A program made the position numbers and the translations under genes. The notes under the pieces are model-generated. The model searched no databases, was not told the DNA's origin, and saw only the letters and a program-made list of their open reading frames with translations. A stretch of 64,000 bases of DNA from a virus: positions 163,220-227,219 of the IMG/VR virus record IMGVR_UViG_3300045988_175328. One strand, given 5' to 3'. Of this stretch, positions 17,376 through 28,968 are shown piece after piece (the stretch's first letter is position 1; each line of letters opens with the position of its first letter).

Positions 17376-20300
17376 ATGAACAAACAAAACATTCAAAACA
17401 ACAAAAATTTAAAAGCTGTCGTATTGGCAGCAGTAGATGCAGCAGTAGCTGCTGATGTGCGCGTGGTTAATACCACTGCGGCGGTAACAACCGCAGAAGC
17501 AGTAGTTACTGAAACTGCAGAAACACTTGCGCGCGCAGCGGTACAGTTTCAAACATTTATCAACAATTTTGTAGTAGAAGGAGGCGAGTATCGTAGCTTC
17601 ATGGGCATTCTATCTGATGTAGGATTTACACATCCAGATCTTGTTAAATGGGTGCGTAAACAAAAATGGACAGAAGCAATGTCTATTTGGAGAGAGGGTC
17701 AAGGATACACACGTAATTCTTTCCTTTGTGATGAAGACTGGAATACATTCCTCGAATTACGGGAAGCCCTCCTTCAAGCGCGCAATGCGTACAAAAACGC
17801 AAAACGTAAATTAGCTAGAAAAGAAGTCGCATTAAAAGCAGCAAAAAAAGAGGCAGCAAAAGCCTTATTAGCAGAGAAATCTGCAAACAAACAATGGAAA
17901 AAGGCGAGAAAGGATGCGAAAGAAGCAAGAGCTACTGAAGCAGCAGTAGCAGTCGAAGAGGCTCGATTAGAAAAAGCACGAAAACGTGCTGAAAAAGTGG
18001 GTCCGAAGGAACCGCCAAAACAAAGAGTGGCCGTAGCTGTTGCTGGTCTTGAGTCCATGTTAGAATGGATCGAATCTAGAAAGGTAGCTGTTACTAAAAC
18101 AGTTGTATTAGAAAATACAGCTAAATTAGTAACAGAAGCTAACGCAGCTGTTGAGTACGGTTATATGGATGCTAGAACTGGAGAATTTGTTTCTACAGAA
18201 GGAACAAAAGAGTTCTCTGGTGCTAGATTCAAAACTGGTGCTATCAACATTGCCGATAAAAATACTGCTAAAGCAACAGCAAAAGCCAACGCTACTGCTA
18301 ATGGTAAAGATTTAGATGGAGACGTCATAAATCGCTTCGTTAAACCTAGAAATATCCTTGATGGATTCAAACTTAAATTGCAAATGTTTGGATCTAAAGT
18401 ACGTGTGCGTAACGTACTTAAAGGTAATCGTAAAGGTTTTAAAGCTGTAATGGGACCAAAAGCACAAGTTGCTATTAAGTCCATTATCGTTGACGGTAGC
18501 GACGTAATGGCTAATGGTGAAGGTGTAAAAGCTATGGCAGTAGCAACTACATCCTCCATTAGCTATATTGTACGTACAGCAATTCGTCTTGGCGAAGAAA
18601 AAGGATGGGCTGAAGAGCTTGTTCTTAGAAATTCTTCTATTAAGACTGGCTATATGGATGGCAACATCGGTATCAACTCTCATAGAGAGATGACATCGAT
18701 GGAAGCCGATTTAACATATATGACTGCAGAAGTATCTGCTAATTATGTGTTGAATGGCTTAATCTCCATTCATATCGATAAAGAGGATGAGGAAGGCGTA
18801 TCCTTCACAAAGGGCATTCGTCAAGCAGAATTCATTATCGTTGATGGAATTAAATACATTCCGTTAATGGTTGAGTCTGTTGCGAAGACTCGTCTATACG
18901 ATACAGTATGGACAGCTGAGCATCTGGCTAACCAATGGCGCGAAGTGCTTCGTGTAGCGACAGGAGGAATCTCTGACAGTATTACTCTAATGAAAGAGTT
19001 AACTAAAGCTCTTAAATTGAGAAGCCGTTTGGGAATGGGGTTCTCTCCTAGCTATGAGTTCGAAATCGATCTTGCACGTTGGGGCGTTGTGTATCTTGAC
19101 GCTTCTATCGATGCAATCGACGGACAAGCTTACGGAAGCAGAGCTATGATGGAAGAGCTTCTTGAACTAGCTGGCGTGAACTCATGGCAAGTTCGCACGA
19201 ATACAGGTAAAGGACAACTCGTTCCAATGAAAAGAATGAAACGTCTACTTGCTGTATTGTGCGAACAATACGGTCTTGAACTCGTTTACGTTTCTGACGT
19301 TGACGAAGTTCAAGCAGCTATTGATGCAGCAAGAGCTGAAGGTAAAAGAGTAGCCGTTGTTGTTGGTAACGCCGAACATATTGGCATGATCGGCGATATG
19401 AATTTCTTTAAAGGAATTCCGACTATCAATGATGGTGGCATTGTTCGTCTAAGCGTCTTGAGAAATCTTGCACCAACAGGCAACGGCTCTCACTTCGCTT
19501 ACCAGGCAGCAGTGGGTGCTTTATGCTCTTACGAATGGGATAATAAAGACCGTTTCGTAAAAGCATTGGCTATGCAAGCCGTTGAAAAATTCACAGAAGC
19601 TTTCAATGGCTGTGCTGTTAATAAATCTGTAACTGATTTGTTTGCAGCATTAGTTGGAGTAAAAGGATTGGCTGGCGAAGCTGATATCATCAGCGAATTA
19701 GCCAACGGTGCATTTACTCCAGCTATGTATGGCATTAAAGAGCTTTCCTATGCGTTAAGAAACGAGCAACAAGTTGTTCGTGGTAGTGCATGGAAAGTTT
19801 CTTGCCCAGGCATGAAGGACGAGCTATTTAACGAAGCTATTCTTGAAGGAGCTGGCCTACTTGTTGTAGAAGGAATTGTTTCTAATAACAATCCTTTACT
19901 AAAACAAGGCGATTGGGTGATGGCATTGAGATACCCACATTCCAATGGGTTCTCTTTCGTTAAAATCAGACTTGTAACAGTATCTGAAGCTATCGAAAGA
20001 GTGAACAACTCTTCCGCGTTTGCGGCTCAAAAAGCTGTCATGATCGATGAGCTATTATCCCTTGGTGATAATAACATCATGGTAGACAGCAGCCGTGAGG
20101 TATTGGAAGCATTAGCTGGTATGGATTTTGATGGAGACGTGATCTCTGTCTTAAATCCAGAAGAAGCAGAGTTGCTTTTGCCAATGGATGAGCTACGTAC
20201 AGTCATTGCTCCGATCGTAACGAAAGCTCAAGAAAAAGAGCTTGTTGTTACAGGAAACTTTGAAGATACAATGCAACATCTTCAAAGCGAGATGGCAGCT

Positions 20301-22178
20301 AATGAAACTAAGTACGTTGGCGAAATCTCCAATGGAGTAATGAAAGCAACTGAGTTCTTGGGTCTTCCTAAAGATGAACAAAGAAAAATTGTGGCAGAAA
20401 TTGTCCGCAATGGAAATCTAAGCCACAATGGCTTATTGCCTACGTTCAACTGGGAGGAACAAGTAACTTGGGTTGAAGGAAAAGAAGGATTCGTACTTAG
20501 CGATGAGTCTACAACTCCTCAAGCTTTAGTTGCTATGAAAAATGCGTTCTTCGATAAAGTTGATGAACGAAACTACTCTGTAGAAAGTTTCATCAACTTC
20601 GCAGAATACGTTGTCATCATGTCTGGTCCAACGCAAGGATTCGTAATTGATGCGGCGAAAAAATTCTGTCCAATCGTAGACTTAGCAGAAGATATCTTCT
20701 CCAACTTAAGTCTTGGATGGAAAAGATTCGCTCCAACAATGGTGCTTACATGCAATGAGTATGGAGAGTTCTCCAAAGGTATGTCTTATAACTTTGGCGA
20801 AGAGAACTCTAGCATTACTCTTACAGTAGGCGCATGTATTCAGGTAGAAGCTTTCAAAGCGTTTGCGGTGGAAGCTTCTAAAGCTATCTTAAATGCATTT
20901 GCTGGAGAGGATGCATCTAAAGCTAACTGGAAAGCATTTGAAGACGCATTGAAAAAAGAGTCTTTAATGTCTTTGGTTGGTGGTAAGATGAACTCTGCTA
21001 GAAAGAACTGCAGAAACATTGCTGCTGGAGCTGCAGCTGCGATTAAAGTTATCGACAACCAAATCGCAGAAGCTTGCGGCGAAGAAAACATTCCTAGTAA
21101 AACAATGAAGGAATGGAGCGACGCTATCGGCTGCATGTTTGCTGCATCTGGTACAATCAATCCTCTTGGATTACGTGCTTATGCATCCAGCAAAACATTA
21201 CGTCCAGCAATCTTGAAAGCAATGCTTGACGCTGCTGAAGTAAAATCCATTCCTGTAGAAATTGGATTTACTTCTATGGCAAGAGTTGCTTTTGCGAAAG
21301 CGAATGTTGGAGAAAAAGTATTCTTCGAAAACTCTAAAGCTGCTGATGCTAACGGAGTAATTCTTCTACACTCTGGTTTAACAGGTTACTACAAAGTATC
21401 TGTTAAAACAGAAGAAGTAGAAGAAAACGGAGAAACAATCTCTGTAGAGACATACTTCGTAGAAGTGCCTGTGTCCGAAGTATTAGGCATCGAACCGATG
21501 AAAACAAATCGTTTCGTTGCTCACTTAGGATACGAAGGTGCCGATGCTGAAGTCGCTAGAAAGTTTAATGCTGAATTAACTAAGTTCGACTTCTGCGCGG
21601 AAGGTACGTTCGCTTTCTATGGCACGATGAAAGAACTAAACAATCTTATGATTGAAAAGTTTGGCGAAGGTGTCTTAAGAGACGTATTGGTATCAACAAT
21701 AACTGGGCTAAAAAACGGTGAAGACGTTTATAGCCAACAGTTTGTTGATTTCATCGCTCTTGCTAATGGTCACGCTACTGATCCGAAGTATGCAGCTGAT
21801 GACAAACATGACCGCGTATTCTTTGTTCGCAAAGATGAGAATGGTCGGGTTGTGGTTATGAGATCATTGCCTAACCAAGCAATGGCTTATGGCCATGAAG
21901 CGTTTAAGCTAAGAGGCATGTTCGCTGGAGAACTAAGATTAGTTAGTTACATCTTAGAAGGAAAAGCTAAGTCTGACAAAAAGGGCTATGTTAATAGCTA
22001 CTTATTGTTAGAGCACAAAACTTTAGCTCCTAAGCAAGAAATCAGTGCGTATATCAATGGTTTAATTACTAAATATGCGGCTGATTTCAAAGCAGCTGTC
22101 TTAAATAAAAAGTTCGAATTAGGTTGCCTTGGTAGCCTAGTTCAAACTGTATTATCTGATGAAGAAATCATTGGATAA
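17376..22178 (+). CDS. putative single-chain two-barrel (DPBB) RNA polymerase, YonO / crAss-gp66-like
   Basis: 1600 aa from ATG 17376 (AAAGGAG RBS; track ORF starts at TTG 17352); RTNTGKG (19194-19214), RYPH (19929-19940), DFDGD (20124-20138) in beta-then-beta-prime order. Confidence 0.6.
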   Translation: MNKQNIQNNKNLKAVVLAAVDAAVAADVRVVNTTAAVTTAEAVVTETAETLARAAVQFQTFINNFVVEGGEYRSFMGILSDVGFTHPDLVKWVRKQKWTEAMSIWREGQGYTRNSFLCDEDWNTFLELREALLQARNAYKNAKRKLARKEVALKAAKKEAAKALLAEKSANKQWKKARKDAKEARATEAAVAVEEARLEKARKRAEKVGPKEPPKQRVAVAVAGLESMLEWIESRKVAVTKTVVLENTAKLVTEANAAVEYGYMDARTGEFVSTEGTKEFSGARFKTGAINIADKNTAKATAKANATANGKDLDGDVINRFVKPRNILDGFKLKLQMFGSKVRVRNVLKGNRKGFKAVMGPKAQVAIKSIIVDGSDVMANGEGVKAMAVATTSSISYIVRTAIRLGEEKGWAEELVLRNSSIKTGYMDGNIGINSHREMTSMEADLTYMTAEVSANYVLNGLISIHIDKEDEEGVSFTKGIRQAEFIIVDGIKYIPLMVESVAKTRLYDTVWTAEHLANQWREVLRVATGGISDSITLMKELTKALKLRSRLGMGFSPSYEFEIDLARWGVVYLDASIDAIDGQAYGSRAMMEELLELAGVNSWQVRTNTGKGQLVPMKRMKRLLAVLCEQYGLELVYVSDVDEVQAAIDAARAEGKRVAVVVGNAEHIGMIGDMNFFKGIPTINDGGIVRLSVLRNLAPTGNGSHFAYQAAVGALCSYEWDNKDRFVKALAMQAVEKFTEAFNGCAVNKSVTDLFAALVGVKGLAGEADIISELANGAFTPAMYGIKELSYALRNEQQVVRGSAWKVSCPGMKDELFNEAILEGAGLLVVEGIVSNNNPLLKQGDWVMALRYPHSNGFSFVKIRLVTVSEAIERVNNSSAFAAQKAVMIDELLSLGDNNIMVDSSREVLEALAGMDFDGDVISVLNPEEAELLLPMDELRTVIAPIVTKAQEKELVVTGNFEDTMQHLQSEMAANETKYVGEISNGVMKATEFLGLPKDEQRKIVAEIVRNGNLSHNGLLPTFNWEEQVTWVEGKEGFVLSDESTTPQALVAMKNAFFDKVDERNYSVESFINFAEYVVIMSGPTQGFVIDAAKKFCPIVDLAEDIFSNLSLGWKRFAPTMVLTCNEYGEFSKGMSYNFGEENSSITLTVGACIQVEAFKAFAVEASKAILNAFAGEDASKANWKAFEDALKKESLMSLVGGKMNSARKNCRNIAAGAAAAIKVIDNQIAEACGEENIPSKTMKEWSDAIGCMFAASGTINPLGLRAYASSKTLRPAILKAMLDAAEVKSIPVEIGFTSMARVAFAKANVGEKVFFENSKAADANGVILLHSGLTGYYKVSVKTEEVEENGETISVETYFVEVPVSEVLGIEPMKTNRFVAHLGYEGADAEVARKFNAELTKFDFCAEGTFAFYGTMKELNNLMIEKFGEGVLRDVLVSTITGLKNGEDVYSQQFVDFIALANGHATDPKYAADDKHDRVFFVRKDENGRVVVMRSLPNQAMAYGHEAFKLRGMFAGELRLVSYILEGKAKSDKKGYVNSYLLLEHKTLAPKQEISAYINGLITKYAADFKAAVLNKKFELGCLGSLVQTVLSDEEIIG

Positions 22179-22192
22179 CAAATAATAATAAA

Positions 22193-22227
22193 GAGAGACC
22201 TCTATATGGGGTCTCCTCTTTTTTTTT
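22193..22227 (+). terminator. intrinsic terminator after RNAP gene
   Basis: stem gagacc/ggtctc then T9. Confidence 0.8.
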
Positions 22228-22422
22228 ATTTTCTGGGATCCCCTCCGGGATCAGGATTCCTCCGCTACGGCTCAGCCTGCGCTCCGGAATAGGCCAGCCT
22301 ATGGCTGTCCGTTAGGAGCGTTATCATTAGGTAGAGGTATAACGATAGAGGAAATAAAAATCCTCATTTATGAGGGTTTATCCTTAGTAAGGAGGAAGAT
22401 AGAAAGTAAAAATGTTTTTCTT

Positions 22423-22450
22423 CTTAAGGGGCAAGCCCCTTAACAACCCC
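22423..22450 (+). repeat. H5 28-nt element cttaaggggcaagccccttaacaacccc, copy 1
   Basis: identical 28-mer also at 30995, 31998, 34950; variant at 38690. Confidence 0.9.
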
Positions 22451-22543
22451 GCCACCCCTGCGGGATGGACCGAACTGGCGGTGGATGAGGTCGTCCGAAA
22501 CGACGTCAAACTAAAGGAAAAATCCTCACTTGTGAGGAAACTT

Positions 22544-22567
22544 GCTCCTGAGTACGAGCTAAAACTG
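22544..22567 (+). promoter_or_regulatory. H1 element (covarying hairpin + TAAACTG), representative copy
   Basis: gctc-ctgagtac-gagc then taaaactg; one of 13 copies between 22490 and 26150. Confidence 0.6.
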
Positions 22568-22723
22568 CTTGCGAGGAAAAATCCTCGTTGTTGAGAGCAC
22601 TTGCTCTTCGAAGGCCCTGGCGGTGTCGGAGAGAGGAGTAGGTGCTGTGGTCCTGAATAAGACATTAAACTGTTTCAGAGGAGAAAATCCTCTGTTGTGA
22701 GAGAGCTCATTTAACTCTCTGTT

Positions 22724-22745
22724 TTAATTAAGCCAGTGTAGAAAT
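22724..22745 (+). promoter_or_regulatory. H3 hairpin with conserved GTAGAAATATTT loop in 5' UTR
   Basis: ccagt/gctgg stem; same loop at 25012, 32852, 35320 with different stems. Confidence 0.6.
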
Positions 22746-22785
22746 ATTTGCTGGTGTTTTCGGGCGCATGCCCAAGGAGGTTATC

Positions 22786-23250
22786 ATGTTAACTTTAGAA
22801 TTAAATCGAAAAATGGCCTATGGTTTTTTCCCAGAATTAATTCGCGATGAAGAGAAAATTGCGAATTTGAATGACTTATTTCAAGAAGTTATTATGAAAA
22901 ATAATCCTAACGGAGTTAAGCTCCAATTGGATTTTAAGCACAATGTAATTGTGCATAAAACCAATGTAGGCGAAGTAACTCTAGTAGAAGAGTACTTCCC
23001 TAATGGTACTGAAAAACTTTGGGTAAATCGTTTCCGTAACAGGAAACAACTATTACCTAAAGTTCCTGCAGAATTAATTCCTGTCGCAAAAGAATGCGAC
23101 GAAAGAAATTTATACAAATTTAATTATTTAAGAGAAGGAAACATTACGTTTTATCTCGCAAATAATAGAAAGGTTCTCGTAAGAGAAACTAAAATGGAGG
23201 ATGGAAGTCTTTCAATCGATTTATTCTACCTAGCTGATTTGTTGGCCTAA
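22786..23250 (+). CDS. hypothetical early-region protein
   Basis: 154 aa from ATG 22786, AAGGAGG RBS (track ORF starts at 22768). Confidence 0.7.
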   Translation: MLTLELNRKMAYGFFPELIRDEEKIANLNDLFQEVIMKNNPNGVKLQLDFKHNVIVHKTNVGEVTLVEEYFPNGTEKLWVNRFRNRKQLLPKVPAELIPVAKECDERNLYKFNYLREGNITFYLANNRKVLVRETKMEDGSLSIDLFYLADLLA

Positions 23251-23296
23251 GTAGAATAATCTCCTAAGCATGAGAATAAACTGCTTATTTGTAACG

Positions 23297-23321
23297 GCTC
23301 CTGAATATGAGCATTAAACTG
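23297..23321 (+). promoter_or_regulatory. H1 element, representative copy
   Basis: gctc-ctgaatat-gagc then attaaactg. Confidence 0.6.
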
Positions 23322-23421
23322 TTCTAGAAGAAAATCCTCTATTATGAGTTTTGTCCGTAATGACGATAAACTAATTATTATAATTTAATTTGGCGGCAAA
23401 TCGCCAGAAAGGAGGCATATT

Positions 23422-23577
23422 ATGTCTCAATTAGAATTAACAAACCACTTAGCGTGGGTAGAAGAAATGGTTGCATTCGCGGAGACTGAAGAGTCCAACT
23501 ACCGTGACTTCGAAGGATATCTTGCGGAGTCATTTATCGGAGGCCTGGACCTCTGGCTAGGAGACGATGAATTTTAG
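23422..23577 (+). CDS. small acidic hypothetical protein (51 aa, below ORF-track cutoff)
   Basis: AAAGGAGG RBS 7 nt before ATG; MSQLELTNHLAWVEEMVAFAETEE...; same hairpin-RBS leader as neighbouring genes. Confidence 0.6.
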   Translation: MSQLELTNHLAWVEEMVAFAETEESNYRDFEGYLAESFIGGLDLWLGDDEF

Positions 23578-23715
23578 ACTCTAGTTTCCTGACCAAGACC
23601 TAGGTATGTCTTTAAACTGCCTAAATCCTCCCCATTGCGGGGACTGAATTGTCTGAGATGACGTTAAACTATTTAATTTAATTCATGGCGGCAAATCGCC
23701 AGAAAGGAGATAAGT

Positions 23716-24006
23716 ATGCATACTTATACTCTTGAAAACACTGAGGCACTAGTTGCCTTAGTGCGTGACCTTTGTTTTAGCAATGGTCATTGTCCCAAAG
23801 AAATCTTCTCTTGGGATGAAAAACATTACATTGTAGCCGGCAACCTAGCTAGTTACGATGGACCATGGGACGGTCCTGAAGATGTCGCTCATATCTACGT
23901 TGATGGTGTAGGCGTGGGAGAAATAGATATCTTCGGCGCCGACCAAATTGCATTCGCCGTTGCTAACTGGAACGGCGAAGAATTGAACAGAAAGGTGGTG
24001 GCTTAA
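23716..24006 (+). CDS. hypothetical early-region protein
   Basis: 96-aa ORF; AAAGGAG RBS preceded by ggcggcaaatcgcc hairpin. Confidence 0.7.
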   Translation: MHTYTLENTEALVALVRDLCFSNGHCPKEIFSWDEKHYIVAGNLASYDGPWDGPEDVAHIYVDGVGVGEIDIFGADQIAFAVANWNGEELNRKVVA

Positions 24007-24036
24007 CTGCTTTTCTGTAATCTCGTCGACCACTCG

Positions 24037-24420
24037 GTGGATGTTTACGATTTAGTAGGAAATCTAATCGTGAGCATCCCTAAGAGTGGTCGTGTAGCTC
24101 GTGTTCGGACAAGTAGCGAAAGAGTGGGCGCTATTTGTTCTAAGGATTTTAGCTATCGAAAATACAATGAAGACGGTAGCTATGAAGATACACCACTTAA
24201 AGGGAACCCACAATCTGGGCACCTGAATATATTCAAATCTGAGTATTCAGATGTCGAAGGGTTCCCTGAAACTATAGAACAGGGTGTGTATTATATTGTC
24301 AGTTCTATGGTGGCGTCTCGTATACAGAGTCATCAGGTTATTGCGCCTGGTCAGATTATGCGGGACGCCTCCGGCAAAGCCGTAGGATGCTGCGGTCTTA
24401 GTTATACTGCCGGAAGATAA
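24037..24420 (+). CDS. hypothetical protein
   Basis: 127-aa ORF with GTG start and no clear RBS. Confidence 0.5.
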   Translation: MDVYDLVGNLIVSIPKSGRVARVRTSSERVGAICSKDFSYRKYNEDGSYEDTPLKGNPQSGHLNIFKSEYSDVEGFPETIEQGVYYIVSSMVASRIQSHQVIAPGQIMRDASGKAVGCCGLSYTAGR

Positions 24421-24460
24421 ATTAATTAATTTAAATAGGGCCCGGATGCTCGAGGAGGTA

Positions 24461-24637
24461 ATGATGAAGAATATAATTATCGTATGCATGCTATCACTAA
24501 TCTGCACTATAGCAATAGTGGAATTTTCAGTAGGCTTGTTCCCAGCATTAGCTGGGTATCCAGAAGCATTGGCTACAGCAGGAGCTATTTCTGTTGCAAC
24601 TATTTCCTTCATGTTGTTTGACATGATAGGAGACTGA
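24461..24637 (+). CDS. small hydrophobic membrane peptide
   Basis: 58 aa from ATG 24461 after GAGGAGG; two predicted TM segments. Confidence 0.6.
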   Translation: MMKNIIIVCMLSLICTIAIVEFSVGLFPALAGYPEALATAGAISVATISFMLFDMIGD

Positions 24638-24656
24638 AAAATCCTCGTTTATGAGG
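24637..24656 (+). promoter_or_regulatory. H2 element AAAAATCCTC-N-TGAGG, representative copy
   Basis: aaaaatcctcgtttatgagg; one of at least 19 copies in the window. Confidence 0.6.
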
Positions 24657-24732
24657 AGAAGTCCGTAATGACTGTAAACTATTCTAATATATTTAATTAA
24701 TTAAAGGGCGCAAATGCCCGGAGGAGGTTTCT

Positions 24733-24903
24733 ATGAGAGACGAAATCATTTTATTAATTTCCAGCATTGCAGTAGGAGTGGGAATTTCTACTCTTATTAA
24801 TGAGGTTTTCCCTATATTAGTGGATTATCCATTAGTAATGTCTATCTTCGGAGGAATCATCTCAGGAGCGATATATTATTTTATTCACTTGTTATCATAC
24901 TAG
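24733..24903 (+). CDS. small hydrophobic membrane peptide (56 aa, below ORF-track cutoff)
   Basis: GGAGGAGG RBS; MRDEIILLISSIAVGVGISTLINEVFPILVDYPLVMSIFGGIISGAIYYFIHLLSY; resembles 24461 product. Confidence 0.6.
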   Translation: MRDEIILLISSIAVGVGISTLINEVFPILVDYPLVMSIFGGIISGAIYYFIHLLSY

Positions 24904-25076
24904 TAGAATAAAATCCTCAGACCTCAGCAAGTCTTTAAACTACTCTTTCCTGACAGTTCCTAAGTATGAACATAAAACTGCTTATCTTTTAAAAATCCTC
25001 GCTTGTGAGGTGCTTGCGTAGAAATAGCAAGCTATATTATTTTAATTAGGCCTTAGGCCAGAAATGGAGTTTTATC

Positions 25077-25547
25077 ATGAAAACACAAAAATCTACAGAA
25101 CGCAAATTAGTTAATTTTTCTAGCTACTTTAAACAAAAAGACGACAAAGTCTTTGGTGCTGCTGTATTGCACTGCGGCAAGGAAGTGCAAGTTGCTGCTT
25201 ACAATGGCGGCAAAGCCCTTCATTCTATTGAAGGAGCTGTGTGTGCAGCAGCATGCGCAGCTACAGTAAATATGAAGAAGGGAGACCTCTTCACCATGAT
25301 TGTTGACTTGAAGACATTACGCCAATTATGGTCTGCTATTAAAACTGGCAATGTAACTGATGACTTCGCAGGCAATGAGGCGGAACGCAATGCCGTTATC
25401 AAAATGGCCGAACGCGTTCCAGCCCTTCGGGCTCGCGGCATTATTGTGAACATTCGTGCTCATAAAGATGTCTATGCAAGTGGAGGATACTTAGCAGGGC
25501 AACTCCCAATTTGGAGCCGTATGGCTACCAAAGCTATGAACATCTAA
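25077..25547 (+). CDS. hypothetical protein
   Basis: 156-aa ORF; leader carries H2, H3 and a ggcc-tta-ggcc hairpin. Confidence 0.7.
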   Translation: MKTQKSTERKLVNFSSYFKQKDDKVFGAAVLHCGKEVQVAAYNGGKALHSIEGAVCAAACAATVNMKKGDLFTMIVDLKTLRQLWSAIKTGNVTDDFAGNEAERNAVIKMAERVPALRARGIIVNIRAHKDVYASGGYLAGQLPIWSRMATKAMNI

Positions 25548-25604
25548 ATCCTCTGACCTGAGCATGTCGGTAAACTGCTCAATTATTTAATTTAATTTAA
25601 TTAA

Positions 25605-25620
25605 GGGCGGCAAATCGCCC
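25605..25620 (+). promoter_or_regulatory. H4 GC hairpin abutting the RBS, representative copy
   Basis: gggcggcaaatcgccc followed directly by gaggagg; similar at 22753, 23391, 23686, 24706, 25049, 48760. Confidence 0.6.
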
Positions 25621-25632
25621 GAGGAGGTTTAT

Positions 25633-26118
25633 ATGCAAACTTTGAAAATTAACAATCCTACAAGAAACTTAATTGAGATGACTTTAGAGGTCACAAAATT
25701 AAACGGCACTATTGAACAAGACGGCAATGCTGTTATCATTAATTTGCCAGAAGAACAGGTGTCTGCCTTTGTAGAATGGTACGGTGGTACTGGACTTAAG
25801 GAGACTGCCCTTGCCATCGCAAAGAAAGCAGGAGCATTAACTGCCAAAGCAGGAGACCTTACGAAAGTAGGGACTGTTGCTTTAGGAAAATTATCTTTCA
25901 AGACAGCCTTCGGTATGACTCGCAGAGCCATTGAGGCGACCGCGGGGATCACAGCTGCGGCCGTTAATGGCGCCAAAGAAGCTTATAGCGAAATGGTAAG
26001 TTCTGACGAGTTCAGAGCTGTTAAAGAATCTTTTAGTTCTGGACGCGGCAACGGCATTGAATTTGTCGAAATGACACCGGTTGTTCAAGCTGAAGTAGCA
26101 GAAGTTGTAGAAGGATAG
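25633..26118 (+). CDS. hypothetical protein, family E (paralogue of 47362..47877)
   Basis: 161 aa; ...LSFKTAFGMTRRAIEATAG...SDEFRAVKESF aligns with ...LAFKTTFGVGRRCVETVAG...SEEFNDLRNQF. Confidence 0.75.
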   Translation: MQTLKINNPTRNLIEMTLEVTKLNGTIEQDGNAVIINLPEEQVSAFVEWYGGTGLKETALAIAKKAGALTAKAGDLTKVGTVALGKLSFKTAFGMTRRAIEATAGITAAAVNGAKEAYSEMVSSDEFRAVKESFSSGRGNGIEFVEMTPVVQAEVAEVVEG

Positions 26119-26127
26119 AAATCCTCA

Positions 26128-26150
26128 GACCTGAGCAAGTCGTTAAACTG
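26128..26150 (+). promoter_or_regulatory. H1 element fused to an H2 AAATCCTC box
   Basis: aaatcctca-gac-ctgagcaa-gtc-gttaaactg. Confidence 0.6.
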
Positions 26151-26190
26151 CTTAATTTAAATTGAATTATATTTTATGGAGGGAACTGTC

Positions 26191-26304
26191 ATGAATAAAG
26201 AAGTTAAACAAATTATTGCATCTATCGGAGTATTAGGATTGTGTTACGCAGTCGGATACGCTATTGGCTATTTCGGATTTAATCTTGTTAAGAAAATTAA
26301 ATAA
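26191..26304 (+). CDS. small hydrophobic peptide (37 aa, below ORF-track cutoff)
   Basis: GGAGGG RBS; MNKEVKQIIASIGVLGLCYAVGYAIGYFGFNLVKKIK. Confidence 0.5.
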   Translation: MNKEVKQIIASIGVLGLCYAVGYAIGYFGFNLVKKIK

Positions 26305-26314
26305 AGGAGGCTAC

Positions 26315-26575
26315 ATGACTATTTCTGAACTTGAGGGCGCCATTAAAATGATGTTCATCATTTACGGCGAGCCGACCGCAACGAATATTGGCTACGGTGT
26401 TTTCAGAGTCACCGCTAGTGATGCTGAAATCCTTATTGAGAGGATTGATACTACTGGTGGATCTAGTATTAAACTGACTGGTCCGTCTGGTTCTATTGAA
26501 AAAGACGAGCCGTCTTTAGAATTTAGATTGTTGGTTGACCGTCTAGAGCGAGTTGTAGACGGTTATAATTATTAG
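26315..26575 (+). CDS. family D small protein (N-half type)
   Basis: 86 aa from ATG 26315 after AAAGGAGG (track ORF starts at 26264). Confidence 0.7.
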   Translation: MTISELEGAIKMMFIIYGEPTATNIGYGVFRVTASDAEILIERIDTTGGSSIKLTGPSGSIEKDEPSLEFRLLVDRLERVVDGYNY

Positions 26576-26597
26576 TTTATCTGTAAGGAGAAACATT

Positions 26598-27083
26598 ATG
26601 GAATTACAAGTAATTAAAGGTATGGTTATTGCGGCAAAATTAGCAAACAAATTTATGGGCGGCGCCTTGGAAAACAATCGTGCCGAGCTCCAAATCGGTG
26701 ACGTGAATTTAGTTATTTACAGCGCTGGCGGAAACGAGGTAGTAATTGCTCCAACTTCTATGGAGATGTGGTATGACCCAATCCATGTTGAAGGAACTTT
26801 GGAAACTGTCTTCGATACCATCGGAGAGATGCTAAAAGAAGCTGTCGAAGATGACGAAGACTCTCCATATCGTTACGAGTTTCCTAACTTAGAGCGCCTT
26901 GTCGAGTATATCGAGAAAGAAACAGGTGTCGTAGCTAACGAACATCCTAAATGCTATACTAAAGAATGGGACGGTATTATGGAATTCGACGAGTTCAAAA
27001 TCGTTTTCTTTGGGCCATACCATGGTACTGTATATGTGCCGGAAGATTACAAACTTAACTTTGTGTTGAAAGAGTTACCATAA
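26598..27083 (+). CDS. family D two-domain protein
   Basis: 161 aa; about half of residues identical by eye to 27363 product (…SPYR..F.NL..LVEYI.KETG...EHPK.Y...FGPYHGTVY.PEDY.LNFVL.ELP). Confidence 0.8.
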   Translation: MELQVIKGMVIAAKLANKFMGGALENNRAELQIGDVNLVIYSAGGNEVVIAPTSMEMWYDPIHVEGTLETVFDTIGEMLKEAVEDDEDSPYRYEFPNLERLVEYIEKETGVVANEHPKCYTKEWDGIMEFDEFKIVFFGPYHGTVYVPEDYKLNFVLKELP

Positions 27084-27094
27084 GGAGAAATATT

Positions 27095-27349
27095 ATGGAA
27101 TTAATTAAAGGATTATTCATTGGCGCCGCCTTACTAGGCAAACCAGTTCTCGTTAAGAAAGAACGGAAGGGCGTATACAATTTTATTATCGGGCCGATCA
27201 CAGTTTTTATCTATGATTGGGATGACAGTCGCACTATCGTCGGTATTGATGGACCAGAAGGTTCATACGAATCTTACAAAATCGACGGGGATGTGAGAAC
27301 AGTATTACACTACCTTGTAGATGTCAACAATAATATCGAGATTAAATAG
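27095..27349 (+). CDS. family D small protein (N-half type)
   Basis: 84 aa; MELIKGLFIGAALLGK... matches N-terminal half of 26598 product. Confidence 0.7.
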   Translation: MELIKGLFIGAALLGKPVLVKKERKGVYNFIIGPITVFIYDWDDSRTIVGIDGPEGSYESYKIDGDVRTVLHYLVDVNNNIEIK

Positions 27350-27362
27350 GAGTATTATTGCT

Positions 27363-27842
27363 ATGAAAATTATTGAAGGTTTAATTATGGCTGCAAGATT
27401 AGCAAATAAAGATATAACATATCGACTAGAAATTAATTATGCCGAATTTAAGATTGGAGATATTACTTTAGATATCTACATAAAAGATAAAAATATAGTT
27501 ATGATTACTCCGACTTGTGAGAACATGTGGGGACAGCCACTCTATATCGAAGGAACAGTCGGGTCTGTTTTCTCTGATATCTTAGACATGGTAAACGAAT
27601 CAGATGTCGATTCTGAGAATTCTCCGTATCGTCAGCGCTTTTCAAATTTAAAATCTTTGGTTGAGTACATCGTAAAAGAAACGGGAGCTATTGCAGGAGA
27701 ACATCCCAAACGTTATATCGAAGAGTGCGCTGACGTTATCGAATTCATTGAATTTAAAGTTGTATTATTCGGGCCATATCATGGAACAGTGTATGCTCCC
27801 GAAGATTACCAACTGAACTTTGTTTTAGACGAATTACCGTAA
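27363..27842 (+). CDS. family D two-domain protein
   Basis: 159 aa from ATG 27363 (track ORF starts at 27321). Confidence 0.8.
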   Translation: MKIIEGLIMAARLANKDITYRLEINYAEFKIGDITLDIYIKDKNIVMITPTCENMWGQPLYIEGTVGSVFSDILDMVNESDVDSENSPYRQRFSNLKSLVEYIVKETGAIAGEHPKRYIEECADVIEFIEFKVVLFGPYHGTVYAPEDYQLNFVLDELP

Positions 27843-27851
27843 GGAGAATTT

Positions 27852-28076
27852 ATGATGGTATTATATTTCGATACAGTTGAGGAGCTTATCGAATATTTTA
27901 AAAAGAAATCTGGATTCGAGCCGGGGCCTGTGAAAATTATTCGTTATTCTGATGGCGCATTCGATATTGTATATGGAGATATCGAGCTAGAATTCGAGAA
28001 TAAGATTAAAGGTTCCGTCTTGTTCTGTGGCGACTTTATGGTTCGCTTCGAACTTGGCACTCCCGTCGTAATCTAA
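27852..28076 (+). CDS. family D small protein (C-half type)
   Basis: 74 aa; VEELIEYFKKKSGFEPGP... resembles C-terminal half of 26598 product. Confidence 0.7.
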   Translation: MMVLYFDTVEELIEYFKKKSGFEPGPVKIIRYSDGAFDIVYGDIELEFENKIKGSVLFCGDFMVRFELGTPVVI

Positions 28077-28128
28077 AAAATCCTCGTTGGCGAGGTCGTA
28101 TTTAAAATTTAATTAAGGAGGAATTATT

Positions 28129-28392
28129 ATGAACATGTCTTATTACGGAAGCTTATTTGATTTGGTAGAAGATATTAAAAAAGACTGCGGCGGATGGGAA
28201 ACGTACAGTTATAAAGCCAAAGGCAATCAGTTAGACATTGAATTCTTTTTGGGCGACGATATCGTATGTAAGGCTGTCTTCGTGTTCGAGAAAAACTTAA
28301 TCGAAGGATCTTATGTTGTCGACGAAGATATTTATGACTTCTCGGTTAAAACGGATGAAGTATTACACCATTTGTTTGCACGTTTAGGTTAG
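28129..28392 (+). CDS. family D-like small protein
   Basis: 87-aa ORF, AAGGAGG RBS. Confidence 0.7.
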   Translation: MNMSYYGSLFDLVEDIKKDCGGWETYSYKAKGNQLDIEFFLGDDIVCKAVFVFEKNLIEGSYVVDEDIYDFSVKTDEVLHHLFARLG

Positions 28393-28438
28393 TTGCTTGG
28401 GTCCTTCGGGACCCTTATTCTTTTATCTGGAGGTTACT

Positions 28439-28672: not shown

Positions 28673-28682
28673 GGAGAACTAT

Positions 28683-28916: not shown

Positions 28917-28920
28917 TAAT

Positions 28921-28968
28921 AAGGGGTGCCCGAGCGAAGCGAGGGGTTAACGCCCCTTTTATTTTTTT
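28921..28968 (+). terminator. intrinsic terminator whose loop holds the first GA/GAA hairpin unit
   Basis: aaggggtg...cgcccctt stem then tttatttttttc. Confidence 0.7.

What the first reader, a model, noticed from the sequence alone, without database searches (positions are those of the whole stretch)
22490..26150. Thirteen covarying hairpin + TAAACTG elements (H1) confined to spacers just downstream of the RNAP gene
I found thirteen copies, all on the + strand and all intergenic. Coordinates run from hairpin start to the end of TAAACT(G): 22490-22512, 22544-22567, 22650-22672, 23260-23283, 23297-23321, 23353-23372, 23596-23619, 23651-23670, 24660-24680, 24919-24941, 24956-24980, 25554-25577, 26128-26150.
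Each copy has a 3-4 bp stem and a 6-8 nt loop with consensus CTRAGYAW (or CGTAAT). After 0-3 nt comes TAAACT, usually followed by GCTT.
The stems differ in sequence but stay complementary: gctc/gagc, tctc/gaga, gttc/gaac, agac/gtct, agtc/gact, gtc/gac. So the structure itself is under selection.
No U-tract follows, so they are not intrinsic terminators. Spacing to any TTGNNA hexamer is 19-24 nt, which does not fit sigma-A promoters.
Three functions have precedent:
- Hairpin promoters for the phage RNAP, as in N4 vRNAP.
- Promoters with only a -10 element read by a phage factor, as in T4 late TATAAATA.
- Intercistronic RNA processing sites, as in RNase III processing of SP82/SPO1 early RNA.
Basis: seen in the sequence. 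Interest (0 to 1): 0.75.

Follow-up and report, generated by a model that had tools for sequence, protein, structure and literature searches.

The report
Widespread phage RNA pseudoknot, not promoter
The repeated "hairpin + TAAACTG" signals are copies of a small RNA pseudoknot found after gene ends in very many unrelated phages and absent from the RNA family library searched; it most likely caps the end of the upstream message and does not start transcription.

Summary
The elements are real: 12 solid copies and one degenerate copy, all on the + strand between genes.

They are not plain hairpins. In the nine long-loop copies the loop (UGAGCA) pairs with the six bases starting at the last T of TAAACT (UGCUCA). 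This gives a ~30-nt H-type pseudoknot: S1 4 bp, L1 = C, S2 6 bp, L3 = N-UAAAC. Both helices covary, with many G·U and almost no A·C pairs, so the sense strand folds, most plausibly as RNA.

No Rfam 15 family matches. The same pseudoknot occurs in at least 120 IMG/VR stretches and at least 120 bacterial genome stretches (prophage-like regions, CRISPR spacers). It also occurs in cultured phages whose records show no such polymerase near it (SIO1, Lactobacillus phig1e, crAss cr7_1, phiEcoM-GJ1).

It usually begins 5-22 nt after a stop codon. Ten copies end 3-13 nt before a tRNA, and four abut a hammerhead ribozyme. This rejects both promoter readings.

Best reading, inferred and not shown: a 3'-UTR pseudoknot that protects the upstream RNA's 3' end after cleavage. 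In this window an AU-rich linker and a GC hairpin follow it before each ribosome-binding site.

The parts
22490..22512 (+). Degenerate class-B copy (GTCGTC-CGAAAC-GACG(A)C + CAAACT)
   Evidence: Sequence read. Has CAAACT instead of TAAACT. Not found by model R1 at E<=10. Relatives carry class-B-like copies with TAAACT at similarly placed sites just downstream of the polymerase gene.
22544..22571 (+). Pseudoknot, class A: S1 GCTC/GAGC, L1 C, S2 TGAGTA/TGCTTG, L3 TAAAAC
   Evidence: S1 4/4, S2 6/6 counting G·U; R1 34.4 bits, E = 2e-7.
22649..22676 (+). Pseudoknot, class A: S1 GTC/GAC, S2 TGAATA/TGTTTC
   Evidence: S1 3, S2 5; R1 32.0 bits, E = 1e-6.
23260..23287 (+). Pseudoknot, class A: S1 TCTC/GAGA, S2 TAAGCA/TGCTTA; starts 10 nt after the stop at 23250
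   Evidence: 4/4, 6/6; R1 37.2 bits.
23297..23325 (+). Pseudoknot, class A: S1 GCTC/GAGC, S2 TGAATA/TGTTCT; in tandem with the previous copy
   Evidence: 4, 5. Left out of model training and found at E = 6.5e-4.
23352..23372 (+). Class-B hairpin (GTC-CGTAAT-GAC + A-TAAACT); no S2; nearest element to the next gene
   Evidence: S2 1/6; R1 E = 0.35.
23596..23623 (+). Pseudoknot, class A: S1 AGAC/GTCT, S2 TAGGTA/TGCCTA
   Evidence: 4, 6; R1 41.5 bits.
23650..23670 (+). Class-B hairpin (GTC-TGAGAT-GAC + GT-TAAACT)
   Evidence: R1 E = 0.006.
24660..24680 (+). Class-B hairpin (AGTC-CGTAAT-GACT + G-TAAACT)
   Evidence: R1 E = 0.05.
24919..24946 (+). Pseudoknot, class A with weakened S2 (TCAGCA/TACTCT, 3/6); S1 AGAC/GTCT
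   Evidence: R1 40.1 bits. Copies with a similar S1 in L004 and L010 keep 5-6 S2 pairs.
24956..24984 (+). Pseudoknot, class A: S1 GTTC/GAAC, S2 TAAGTA/TGCTTA, L3 A-TAAAAC
   Evidence: 4, 6. Left out of training and found at E = 1.2e-4.
25554..25581 (+). Pseudoknot, class A: S1 (T)GAC/GTC(G), S2 TGAGCA/TGCTCA; 7 nt after the stop of the 156-aa gene
   Evidence: R1 45.7 bits. Stays with the upstream 156-aa gene when a YpsA gene is inserted in L001.
26127..26154 (+). Pseudoknot, class A: S1 GAC/GTC, S2 TGAGCA/TGCTTA; 9 nt after the stop of the 161-aa gene
   Evidence: R1 47.2 bits.
24911..24918 (+). AAATCCTC box directly abutting the pseudoknot at 24919
25546..25553 (+). AAATCCTC box overlapping the stop codon TAA and abutting the pseudoknot at 25554
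26119..26126 (+). AAATCCTC box abutting the pseudoknot at 26127
25582..25604 (+). AU-rich linker (ATTATTTAATTTAATTTAATTAA); inferred cleavage zone or cassette junction
   Evidence: 92% A+T. In L001 the junction of the inserted YpsA cassette falls within this linker.
23373..23391 (+). AU-rich linker after the class-B copy
23671..23686 (+). AU-rich linker after the class-B copy
24681..24705 (+). AU-rich linker after the class-B copy
   Evidence: 96% A+T.
23392..23405 (+). GC hairpin GGCGGCAAATCGCC just upstream of the ribosome-binding site; inferred 5' cap of the downstream message
   Evidence: predicted hairpin.
23687..23700 (+). GC hairpin GGCGGCAAATCGCC upstream of the ribosome-binding site
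24706..24719 (+). GC hairpin GGGCGCAAATGCCC upstream of the ribosome-binding site
25605..25620 (+). GC hairpin GGGCGGCAAATCGCCC upstream of the ribosome-binding site; travels with the downstream 161/163-aa gene

Best explanation
**What it is.**
- Each class-A element is a compact H-type RNA pseudoknot in the 3' untranslated stretch of the gene upstream.
- Its layout is S1 of 4 bp, a one-base loop C, S2 of 5-6 bp made by the hairpin loop and the bases after TAAAC, a one-base junction, and an A-rich loop N-UAAAC.
- It belongs to a family spread through many unrelated phages and has no match in Rfam 15.

**How it most likely works (inferred, not shown).**
- The early genes are transcribed through these elements.
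- The transcript is then cut downstream of the knot. In this phage the cut would fall in the AU-rich linker. In other phages RNase P cuts at a tRNA, or a hammerhead ribozyme cuts itself.
- The stacked two-helix knot is left 3-7 nt from the new 3' end. There it would block 3'-to-5' exonucleases and stabilise the upstream message.
- The GC hairpin before the ribosome-binding site would protect the new 5' end of the next message.
- Tandem copies add redundancy.
- Class-B copies are a variant private to this lineage. They keep S1 and UAAAC but have lost S2.
For: **Structure.**
- In 51 distinct copies from the window and its relatives, both helices covary: 94.1% of cells are paired against 76.5% in shuffles, with 7 of 10 pairs changed on both sides.
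- In 150 copies from unrelated contigs, S1 columns that the search pattern did not fix covary strongly. Columns 5-16 give AU 78, UA 56, CG 10, GC 3. Columns 4-17 give GC 81, CG 53.
- Free S2 columns pair in 148, 144 and 102 of 150 copies.
- Wobbles are G·U, not A·C, so the sense strand folds.

**Family.**
- The pattern hits at least 120 IMG/VR stretches and at least 120 GTDB genome stretches.
- Model R1, built only from this phage group, hits crAss cr7_1 (42.6 bits), phig1e (39.3), SIO1 (38.7) and phiEcoM-GJ1 (22.5).
- No Rfam family matches, even at E<=10 on a 111-nt stretch.

**Placement.**
- 155 of 163 copies lie outside same-strand ORFs.
- They most often begin 5-10 nt after a stop codon. 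The distance to the next start codon is looser, with a median of 62 nt.

**Next to cleavage sites.**
- 10 of 298 copies end 3-13 nt before a same-strand tRNA, eight of them at 3-6 nt. About 0.1 would be expected by chance, by my own rough estimate from tRNA density. None lies within 60 nt downstream of a tRNA.
- 4 copies are followed at once by a hammerhead ribozyme whose stem III starts right after S2'. The predicted cut is 5-7 nt after the knot. Rfam confirms Hammerhead_3 in L150.

**It belongs to the upstream gene.**
- In L001 a YpsA gene is inserted between the 156-aa and 161/163-aa genes, whose orthology is 87% and 91% identity.
- The knot with S1 TGAC/GTCG stays with the upstream gene.
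- The GC hairpin GGGCGGCAAATCGCCC stays with the downstream gene.
- The junction lies in the AU-rich linker.

**Window layout.** The order stop codon, AAATCCTC box where present, knot or class-B hairpin, AU-rich linker, GC hairpin, SD recurs with variations in five spacers.
Against: - No RNA ends were mapped, so every functional step is inference.
- A simple nuclease roadblock does not explain why L1 = C, the A13-U25 pair, UAAAC and even the S2 sequence are kept across phages of different phyla. This points to tertiary contacts or a conserved partner.
- Class-B copies keep UAAAC without any S2. So UAAAC matters outside the knot.
- The knot has only about 10 bp, and pseudoknot stability could not be computed with the tools on hand.
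- In T4 the architecturally similar gene 32 pseudoknot sits at the 5' end of a processed message and binds a protein.
- The cassette argument rests on one insertion.
- The tRNA and hammerhead contexts cover only about 5% of the copies examined, and none lies in this window (no tRNA).
Confidence: 0.42

Rival explanations
1. Translational operator of the T4 gene 32 type. The pseudoknot (or class-B hairpin) would nucleate cooperative binding of a phage single-strand-binding or other RNA-binding protein. The protein would spread along the AU-rich linker to the ribosome-binding site and shut off early genes.
For: - The T4 gene 32 leader, read directly, has the same plan: S1 of 4 bp, a one-base loop, S2 of 7 bp and an A-rich loop. 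UUAAUUAAAUUAAAUUAAAAAGGA then leads to the start codon.
- A review states that this knot nucleates gp32 binding through UUAA(A) repeats (PMC3014915).
- The window has 72-96% A+T linkers with TTTAATT repeats between the element and the SD.
- Conserved unpaired bases, and UAAAC retained in class B, fit recognition by a protein.
Against: - A GC hairpin interrupts the linker before the SD in most spacers, which would break cooperative spreading.
- Family members sit 3-6 nt before tRNAs and next to hammerheads, where translation is not at issue.
- Tandem copies, and copies far from any start codon, do not fit.
- Neighbouring genes are unrelated and are not SSB genes.
- Model R1 does not match the T4 leader.
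- The knot travels with the upstream gene, not the downstream one.
Confidence: 0.17
2. The knot is itself a recognised processing signal or a small catalytic or cofactor RNA. For example, it could be a mini-helix that RNase P or another universal enzyme cuts, or a new self-cleaving motif. On this reading it is not just a passive cap.
For: - S1 and S2 would stack into a helix of about 10-11 bp, close to the length of a tRNA acceptor/T arm. This is my own geometric inference.
- Unpaired and junction bases are very strongly conserved across phyla.
- The distribution is sporadic, phage-associated, intergenic and multi-copy, near tRNAs and hammerheads. It resembles what is reported for pistol and other phage-linked ribozymes (PMC4604425).
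Against: - At about 30 nt with almost every base in a helix, there is little room for an active site.
- No Rfam ribozyme or riboswitch model matches.
- A second cleavage signal right beside a tRNA or hammerhead would be redundant.
Confidence: 0.12
3. Decoy or sponge RNA. The many copies made early would soak up a host factor (a nuclease, or a defence sensor or effector), as pseudo-ToxI and RNA anti-CRISPRs do.
For: - The element is amplified to 12 copies here and more than 20 in L007. In L007 there is a run of about 1.6 kb with many copies and no convincing + strand ORF.
- The copies sit in what looks like the first-expressed region, next to a putative virion polymerase gene.
- The sequence is conserved across host phyla.
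- A precedent exists for pseudoknot RNA mimicry by phages (PMC3475682, listed and not read in detail).
Against: - Most other phages carry only 1-5 copies, placed tightly after stop codons.
- No candidate partner was identified.
- Stems vary freely, unlike mimics of a fixed repeat.
Confidence: 0.1
4. Transcription signal at the DNA or nascent-RNA level. The element would be a promoter for the phage polymerase (N4-like hairpin, or -10-only), or a terminator or pause site for it.
For: - The elements lie downstream of a probable two-barrel RNA polymerase gene and are co-oriented with the genes.
- About 25% of family members have at least 5 T in the 8 nt after the knot, against 7% at random sites.
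- Early promoters of related single-chain polymerases are poorly known. crAss phi14:2 early transcripts show no common motif, and the P23-45 virion polymerase uses an AT-rich motif.
Against: - Folding is on the sense strand, with G·U pairs.
- The family occurs in phages whose records or fetched regions show no such polymerase.
- phiEcoM-GJ1's annotated phage promoters lie elsewhere.
- No shared promoter-like motif is seen upstream of the copies in other phages.
- A tRNA 3-6 nt downstream, or a start codon 12-25 nt downstream, must be co-transcribed through the element.
- There is no U-tract in this window.
- If the phage polymerase has a promoter in these spacers, the AT-rich box before the GGG/GGC hairpin is a better candidate.
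Confidence: 0.06

Closest known systems
T2/T4 gene 32 mRNA pseudoknot (translational operator)
   Same: - It has the same H-type plan: short S1, a one-base loop 1, S2 of 6-7 bp and an A-rich loop of 5-7 nt.
- In T4 it is followed by UUAAA-type repeats leading to the ribosome-binding site, as in window 25554-25632.
- Both lie in phage messages.
   Different: - The sequence differs: L1 is A not C, and the loop is AAGUG not UAAAC. Model R1 does not match it.
- T4 has one copy, 5' of one gene (the SSB gene), and it binds gp32.
- Here there are many copies, placed after stop codons and travelling with the upstream gene. Elsewhere they sit beside tRNAs and ribozymes.
MALAT1 / MEN-beta 3'-end module: triple-helix element plus a downstream tRNA-like structure cut by RNase P
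   Same: A compact structure with A-rich strand contacts sits just upstream of an RNase P cleavage site. After the cut it forms the protected 3' end. Ten family members end 3-13 nt before a real tRNA.
   Different: - That module is eukaryotic and uses a U-rich clamp around a 3' A-rich tail, not an H-type pseudoknot.
- The window itself has no tRNA.
- Protection is inferred here, not shown.
3' stabilising hairpins of bacterial and phage messages: REP elements, terminator stems, 3' stems left by RNase III in T7 early RNA (from my own knowledge)
   Same: They occupy an intercistronic position right after a coding region and have the proposed role of stopping 3' exonucleases.
   Different: - Those are simple, usually GC-rich stem-loops or ~20-bp duplexes specific to one genome.
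- This is a pseudoknot with conserved loops shared across phyla.
N4 virion-polymerase hairpin promoters (from my own knowledge)
   Same: Both have a short hairpin with a variable stem and conserved loop and flank, repeated near a polymerase gene.
   Different: - N4 hairpins are described as forming on the template DNA strand, with 5-7-bp stems and 3-nt loops.
- Here the sense strand folds, the loop is 8 nt and it pairs downstream.
- The family occurs in phages whose records or fetched regions show no virion polymerase.
preQ1-I riboswitch and pistol ribozyme (small pseudoknots with an A-rich strand after the first hairpin)
   Same: Both have a hairpin loop pairing with a downstream strand and an A-rich linker after the hairpin. 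Pistol is also phage-associated.
   Different: - No match to either Rfam model.
- The junction here is one base, so there is no obvious ligand pocket.
- There are no P2/P3 stems or cleavage site as in pistol.
- The downstream genes are unrelated.
PeSL mobile regulatory cassettes of T4-type phages
   Same: They are repeated intergenic structured elements between small genes in plastic regions. They sit at cassette borders where genes are swapped, as in the YpsA insertion with its own knot in L001.
   Different: - PeSLs are described as an early promoter plus a plain stem-loop, private to related phages.
- This element is a covarying pseudoknot shared by unrelated phages.

Membership tests
H-type RNA pseudoknot (structural class) | Two helices in which the loop of the first hairpin pairs with a downstream strand, both supported by covariation | tested here: met
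   - helix 1 has 3 of 4 pairs changed on both sides and helix 2 has 4 of 6. 94% of cells are paired, against 25-38% for slid partners.
- 150 unrelated copies confirm it.
- Class-B copies do not meet it, having no S2.
N4-type hairpin promoter | Hairpin with a 5-7-bp stem and 3-nt loop formed on the template strand | tested here: not met
   The stem is 4 bp and the loop 8 nt (6 nt in class B). G·U wobbles place the fold on the sense strand.
N4-type hairpin promoter | Occurs with, and is read by, a virion polymerase of the phage | tested here: not met
   The family is present in SIO1, phig1e, cr7_1 and a C. tetani prophage, with no such polymerase in the records or regions examined. Use by the polymerase itself is not testable here.
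-10-only late-type promoter (T4 TATAAATA style) | A fixed AT-rich box at -10 with no structural requirement, placed upstream of every transcription unit | tested here: not met
   - TAAAC is flanked by covarying partners on both sides.
- The element lies 3-6 nt before tRNAs.
- TAAACTG alone is not enriched in the window.
Intrinsic (Rho-independent) terminator | GC-rich stem-loop followed at once by a U-tract | tested here: not met
   - No U-tract follows in the window.
- Only about 25% of family members have at least 5 T in the next 8 nt.
- Genes 3-25 nt downstream must be co-transcribed.
RNase III processing site (T7 / SP82 early RNA type) | Duplex of about 20 bp, often with an internal loop | tested here: not met
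   The helices are 4 and 6 bp.
Any curated Rfam 15 family (including preQ1-I/II/III, pistol, hammerhead, twister, hatchet, Drum) | Match to the family covariance model | tested here: not met
   No hit on any element at E<=10 over 22000-32000 or over a 111-nt stretch. As a positive control, the same kind of scan finds Hammerhead_3 beside a family member. The description of Drum does not fit.
T4 gene 32-type translational operator | Pseudoknot with a one-base loop 1 and S2 of 6-7 bp, followed by an unstructured A+U-rich tract reaching the ribosome-binding site | tested here: inconclusive
   The architecture and AU-rich tract are present. However, a GC hairpin interrupts the tract, and model R1 does not match T4.
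T4 gene 32-type translational operator | Sits in the leader of the gene for the protein that binds it (autoregulation) | tested here: not met
   There are many copies before unrelated small genes, tRNAs and ribozymes. The knot stays with the upstream gene. Protein binding is not testable here.
3'-end protective RNA structure (working assignment) | Lies just 5' of the site where the RNA 3' end is made | tested here: inconclusive
   Met for 10 tRNA-adjacent and 4 hammerhead-adjacent copies. For the window copies, the cleavage site in the AU-rich linker is only inferred.
3'-end protective RNA structure (working assignment) | Stalls 3'-to-5' exonucleases and lengthens the half-life of the upstream RNA | not testable with these tools
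   Needs nuclease assays and half-life measurements.

The most novel reading that the evidence does not exclude
The element would be a previously undescribed, pan-phage RNA module: a ~30-nt pseudoknot with near-invariant loops shared by phages of Firmicutes, Proteobacteria, Bacteroidota, Cyanobacteria and Saccharibacteria. It would work through a specific, conserved partner or tertiary fold, not as a generic roadblock. Possibilities include a bacterial-virus counterpart of the triple-helix 3' caps of MALAT1 and PAN RNA, coupled to RNase P or ribozyme cleavage. Another is an inhibitor or decoy of a universal RNA-decay or defence enzyme. In this phage lineage it would have been amplified into an early-region array.
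Probability: 0.3. Interest if true: 0.85.

Novelty: new variant of a known kind. Interest (0 to 1): 0.72.

Why it matters
**If the family is as undescribed as it appears:**
- No Rfam model matches it, and my literature searches found no description.
- It would then be one of the most widely spread small structured RNAs of phages. It is present in cultured model phages where it can be tested at once.

**If it is a 3' cap placed beside RNase P and ribozyme cuts:**
- It would explain how phages build stable single-gene messages out of long transcripts.
- It would give a reason for the long-puzzling hammerhead ribozymes and stray tRNAs in phage intergenic regions.
- It would offer a compact, host-independent stabiliser for synthetic biology.

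**For this phage:**
- It removes a tempting but wrong promoter assignment for a new orphan polymerase.
- It redirects the promoter search to the AT-rich box before the GGG hairpins.

Tried and rejected
**1. Hairpin or -10 promoters.** Rejected on strand of folding, pseudoknot pairing, presence in phages whose records or fetched regions show no such polymerase, and position.

**2. Chance origin of the IMG/VR hits.** By my own rough estimate, about 100 hits could arise at random for a pattern with 14 fixed bases. However, 83 of 126 matches have 3/3 Watson-Crick pairs in the unconstrained S1 positions, and nearly all extend S2. So the hits are real.

**3. Known RNA families.** Two Rfam scans in E-value mode gave only noise. 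The description of Drum does not fit, and the pistol paper gave no sequence to compare.

**4. Riboswitch.**
- Upstream neighbours are unrelated: DUF932, Hsp20, ribonucleotide reductase.
- Downstream neighbours are unrelated too: scaffold protein, primase, thioredoxin, PhoH.
- The helix junction is one base.

**5. Shared promoter upstream of the knot in other phages.** Only A-richness is seen, with no -10 or TATAAATA peak.

**6. Frameshift or readthrough signal.** There is no consistent slippery site. Tandem copies and non-coding arrays also argue against it.

**7. CRISPR-repeat mimic.** AUAAACUG resembles the I-E handle AUAAACCG (from my own knowledge). But the stems vary freely and the loop pairs downstream. 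I did find copies inside CRISPR spacers.

**8. S2 for class B.** Only 1-4 of 6 positions pair, mostly A-U, so class B has no pseudoknot. The class-B pattern has no IMG/VR hit.

**9. Sequence identification of the 1608-aa protein.** Pfam, PHROGs, PDB single-sequence and profile searches, INPHARED tblastn and a 1.8-billion-protein phmmer run gave no named relative. One profile job failed for length.

**10. Literature searches.** Sequence words and "pseudoknot + phage" combinations returned nothing relevant. A catalogue of 10,006 viral candidate RNAs may contain the element unnamed; I did not check its supplements.

**11. AT-rich box TTTAATTWAATT as the real promoter.** It is only modestly enriched, 28 found against 14 expected. 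This is left as an idea.

Full report
**1. The observation**

The stretch 22300-26400 was read directly. Lining the copies up on AACT shows two classes.
- Nine class-A copies read NNNC-CYNRRYAW-GNNN-N(0-2)-TAAA(A)CT-GYYY. They start at 22544, 22649, 23260, 23297, 23596, 24919, 24956, 25554 and 26127.
- Three class-B copies read (N)GTC-YGNRAW-GAC(N)-N-TAAACTA. They start at 23352, 23650 and 24660, and each is the last element before a gene.

Relatives carry class-B-like copies with TAAACT at similarly placed sites just downstream of the polymerase gene, so it is a decayed class-B copy.

All copies lie on the + strand between ORFs.

TAAACTG by itself is not enriched: 14 found against 12.6 expected. 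The composite element is. A loose structural scan gives 12 hits in 3.6 kb of one strand. The other 20 hits, mostly AT-only stems, lie in the remaining ~124 kb of both strands. A covariance model run with filters off finds nothing else in the 64 kb at E<0.01.

**2. The elements are pseudoknots**

Listing the copies from the window and from related contigs side by side showed a second pairing. Loop bases 2-7 (for example TGAGCA) are complementary to the six bases that begin with the last T of TAAACT (TGCTCA). The two segments change together:
- TGAAC/GTTCA
- TGGAC/GTCCA
- TGGGC/GCCCA
- TAAGC/GCTTA
- TAAGT/ACTTA

The regular expression that collected the copies constrained only the loop pattern and TAAA?ACT. 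It did not constrain the arms or the downstream bases.

On 51 distinct copies (alignment A4) I tested the structure ..((((.[[[[[[.))))......]]]]]]...:
- 94.1% of cells are paired, against 76.5% in column shuffles and 25-38% when partners are slid by 1-3 columns.
- 94 cells change on both sides, against 32 expected (0 of 500 shuffles reach this).
- Three of four S1 pairs and four of six S2 pairs change on both sides.

The fold is therefore:
- S1 of 4 bp.
- L1 of one base, always C.
- S2 of 5-6 bp.
- A one-base junction (A/U, sometimes G/C).
- L3 = N-UAAAC.

The non-Watson-Crick pairs are G·U. At pair 12-26, U·G accounts for 17 of 51 cells here and 48 of 150 in the wider set, with no unpaired cells in the latter. 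On the opposite strand these would be A·C mismatches. So the sense strand folds.

Two further points make RNA the natural reading. The elements are co-oriented with genes: 64 of 65 model hits lie on the gene strand. They also sit beside same-strand tRNAs.

Class-B copies have no convincing S2, with only 1-4 of 6 positions pairing, mostly A-U.

**3. The family is not private to this phage**

The window comes from an uncultured phage. It has no nucleotide or protein match in INPHARED. Relatives were reached through homologues of the 1608-aa protein. The longest related contigs are about 222-225 kb. All relatives carry the elements downstream of that gene, with 10 to more than 20 copies each.

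By my own rough estimate that number alone could be chance. The unconstrained positions show it is not:
- 83 of 126 viral matches have 3/3 Watson-Crick pairs in S1, and nearly all continue S2 with TCA.
- In the genome set, 54 of 87 listed matches have 3/3 Watson-Crick pairs in S1.

On 150 of these sequences:
- Columns 5-16 give AU 78, UA 56, CG 10, GC 3.
- Columns 4-17 give GC 81, CG 53, AU 8, UA 4.
- Free S2 columns pair in 148, 144 and 102 of 150 sequences.
- A fifth S1 pair is not supported.

BLAST with two consensus 32-mers finds the element in annotated phages of very different kinds:
- Roseophage SIO1
- Lentibacter ICBM1-3
- Celeribacter P12053L
- crAss-like cr7_1 and cr124_1
- Lactobacillus phig1e, KC5a and Lj771
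- Clostridium tetani phiCT19406B
- the phiEcoM-GJ1 group, and others

Model R1 was built only from this phage group. It scores cr7_1 at 42.6 bits, phig1e at 39.3, SIO1 at 38.7 and phiEcoM-GJ1 at 22.5.

The genome hits span Cyanobacteria, Saccharibacteria, Bacteroidota, Firmicutes, Proteobacteria, Planctomycetota and more. They look like prophage regions. Two lie inside CRISPR spacers, L190 and L215.

No Rfam 15 family matches any copy at E<=10, even when only 111 nt are searched. Six literature searches found no description. A catalogue of 10,006 unnamed viral candidate RNAs may include it.

**4. Where it sits**

Across 163 copies in viral loci, 155 lie outside same-strand ORFs. The start of S1 is most often 5-10 nt after a stop codon. 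The next start codon is at a looser distance, with a median of 62 nt and a subset at 19-30 nt.

In contigs with several copies, single genes are bracketed by knots.

Neighbouring genes share no function:
- Upstream: DUF932, Hsp20, ribonucleotide reductase.
- Downstream: scaffold protein, primase, thioredoxin, PhoH.

The flanks are G-poor, A-rich on the 5' side and U-rich on the 3' side. No common -10-like box is seen upstream.

Two contexts are telling.
- Of 298 copies, ten end 3-13 nt before the 5' end of a same-strand tRNA, eight of them at 3-6 nt. By my own rough estimate from tRNA density, chance predicts about 0.1. None lies within 60 nt downstream of a tRNA.
- Four copies (L014, two in L150, L199) are followed at once by a type III hammerhead whose stem III begins right after S2'. 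The GUC/GUA cleavage site falls 5-7 nt after the knot. Rfam confirms Hammerhead_3 in L150 above its gathering score.

In both contexts a programmed cut leaves the knot a few bases from a new 3' end. The tRNA, ribozyme or start codon so close downstream must be co-transcribed through the knot. That rules out an efficient terminator or a promoter.

**5. Which gene it belongs to**

In L001 a YpsA-family gene is inserted between the orthologues of the window's 156-aa and 161-aa genes, which are 87% and 91% identical. Comparing the spacers shows three things:
- The AAATCCTC box and the knot with S1 TGAC/GTCG stay with the upstream 156-aa gene.
- The hairpin GGGCGGCAAATCGCCC and the SD stay with the downstream gene.
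- The inserted gene brings its own hairpin-SD in front and its own AAATCCTC-knot (S1 GCTC/GAGC) behind.

The junctions therefore lie in the AU-rich linkers. The gene module is hairpin-SD-ORF-stop-AAAUCCUC-knot, and the knot is a 3' element. This rests on one natural insertion.

**6. How the window is organised**

The same order recurs, with variations, in five spacers:
- stop codon;
- zero to two class-A knots;
- an AAATCCTC box, either with its own hairpin plus a class-B hairpin, or abutting a class-A knot;
- a 16-25-nt linker of 72-96% A+T with TTTAATT repeats;
- a GC hairpin;
- GGAGG;
- ATG.

The 590-nt spacer after the big ORF holds three to four AAATCCTC hairpins, two knots and the decayed copy.

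**7. Best explanation and its limits**

Shown by computation:
- the fold;
- the strand that folds;
- the spread of the family;
- the post-stop position;
- the adjacency to RNase P and hammerhead sites;
- the link to the upstream gene.

Inferred:
- the early region is transcribed through the knots;
- the RNA is cut in the AU-rich linker, for which host RNase E or RNase Y type enzymes are candidates;
- the knot blocks 3' exonucleases on the upstream piece;
- the GC hairpin protects the downstream piece.

I put this at about 0.4. I put the structural identity (an RNA pseudoknot of a widespread family, not a promoter) at about 0.9.

The main weakness is that a passive roadblock does not explain the conservation across phyla of L1 = C, A13-U25, UAAAC and the S2 sequence. 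Nor does it explain why class B retains UAAAC. Those facts keep alive the rival readings in which a protein or enzyme recognises the element.

**8. The strongest rival**

The T4 gene 32 leader was read directly. It shows UGCC-A-GCUAUGA-GGUA-AAGUG-UCAUAGC followed by ACCAACUGUUAAUUAAAUUAAAUUAAAAAGGAAAUAAAAAUG. This is the same architecture and the same kind of AU-rich tract as window 25554-25632.

There the knot nucleates gp32 binding, and the processed message is unusually stable.

Against a gene 32-type operator here:
- the GC hairpin interrupts the tract;
- copies occur in tandem;
- copies sit beside tRNAs and ribozymes;
- the knot is linked to the upstream gene;
- model R1 does not match the T4 leader.

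**9. The polymerase and the promoter question**

The 1608-aa ORF (17352-22178) has no Pfam, PHROG or PDB sequence match. Only about a dozen homologues exist among 1.8 billion representative proteins.

Evidence that it is a polymerase:
- It keeps invariant QVRT..GKGQ, RYPHxNG and GMDFDGD motifs.
- A low-confidence model (pLDDT 41) gives the QDE-1 two-barrel polymerase as its four best PDB hits (E 3e-4 to 2e-3, TM about 0.13).

So the label "RNAP gene" is probably right.

Known relatives of that fold use other signals. crAss phi14:2 early transcripts have no common motif. The P23-45 virion polymerase uses an AT-rich motif.

If this enzyme has promoters in these spacers, the AT-rich box just before the GGG/GGC hairpins is a better candidate than the knots. 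I could show only a twofold enrichment for it.

**10. Verdict**

- The promoter interpretations are rejected.
- The RNA-processing idea is partly right.
- The element appears to be an undescribed, very widespread phage pseudoknot. Its function is inferred, not proven.

Noticed in passing
window 22358-61833 (22 sites, e.g. 22358, 22520, 22579, 22685, 23332, 23623, 24639, 24993, 28078, 32063, 36548, 46906): - AAATCCTC is a second repeated motif: 22 copies against 3.0 expected, 21 of them on the + strand.
- In the window and relatives, 73 of 107 distinct copies use CCUC as the 5' arm of a hairpin of at least 4 bp, against 25% of random sites.
- The fifth pair covaries (CCTCA/TGAGG, CCTCG/CGAGG, G·U).
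- The 3' arm is Shine-Dalgarno-like (GAGG, GAGGAGG).
- In nested folds UCCUC can instead pair with the SD of the next gene.
- Its role is unknown: 3'-UTR hairpin, anti-SD or promoter part.
   Followed up: partly
window 22762-22773, 23392-23405, 23687-23700, 24706-24719, 25049-25059, 25605-25620: GC-rich hairpins (GGCGGCAAATCGCC and variants) sit a few bases upstream of the GGAGG of six early genes, each after an AT-rich tract. One of them travels with the downstream gene in L001. They could be 5' stabilisers or the start of transcripts.
   Followed up: partly
window 17352-22178: A 1608-aa orphan protein with invariant RYPHxNG and GMDFDGD.
- The Foldseek top hits are QDE-1 two-barrel RNA polymerases, despite a poor model.
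- There is no Pfam, PHROG or PDB sequence hit, and only about 12 homologues exist in 1.8 billion representatives.
- It follows baseplate genes, so it may be a virion-packaged polymerase of a new lineage.
   Followed up: partly
L002, L004, L008, L009 (contig ends 0.9-1.8 kb upstream of the polymerase gene): Four independently assembled contigs (two of about 222 kb, one of 99 kb, one of 14 kb) end just upstream of this gene, while others run through. This suggests a physical genome end or terminal repeat there. It would make the polymerase gene and the knot-rich region the first DNA to enter the cell.
   Followed up: no
L150 7541-7595 (-), and also L014, L199: Type III hammerhead ribozymes start right at the 3' end of pseudoknot copies. 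Rfam scores Hammerhead_3 at 50.5 bits in L150.
   Followed up: yes
L190 (Cloacimonadota MAG) ~5077-5110; L215 (Saprospira grandis) ~ -strand 4552: Pseudoknot copies lie between direct repeats that look like CRISPR repeats (one ends ATTGAAAC). That is, hosts appear to carry spacers taken from this phage element.
   Followed up: no
window 48527-48555: A perfect TTGACA-17 nt-TATAAT promoter consensus sits 5 nt after an AAATCCTC box. It is a sign that host RNA polymerase reads part of this genome.
   Followed up: no
window 31243-31268: A canonical intrinsic terminator (AGCCGCCCGTTTGGGCGGC + T7) on the + strand just before the gene at 31281. It was picked up through leader-family noise in Rfam.
   Followed up: no
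window 29690-29781 and 30490-30900: - A long AT-rich hairpin gives microRNA-like Rfam noise.
- A cluster of TAAA(A)CTG-containing repeats (TACTAATAG...TAAACTGTA) lies in a stretch without long ORFs.
- These are not members of the pseudoknot family.
   Followed up: no
window 44900-46159: A 419-aa ORF matching PHROG 506 'transposase' (E = 6e-43). It looks like a mobile element inside the phage genome.
   Followed up: no
L007 15409-17385 (also L008, L009): More distant relatives encode a 658-aa protein with AAA_33 kinase, PolyA_pol/CCA-adding and HD domains, right after the polymerase gene. Beyond it lies a run of about 1.6 kb with many knot and hairpin copies and no convincing + strand ORF.
   Followed up: no
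L001 16729-17265: A YpsA-family (PF06908) gene cassette is inserted in one relative, with its own leader hairpin and its own trailing AAATCCTC-knot. The AU-rich linkers seem to be the swap points for gene cassettes.
   Followed up: partly
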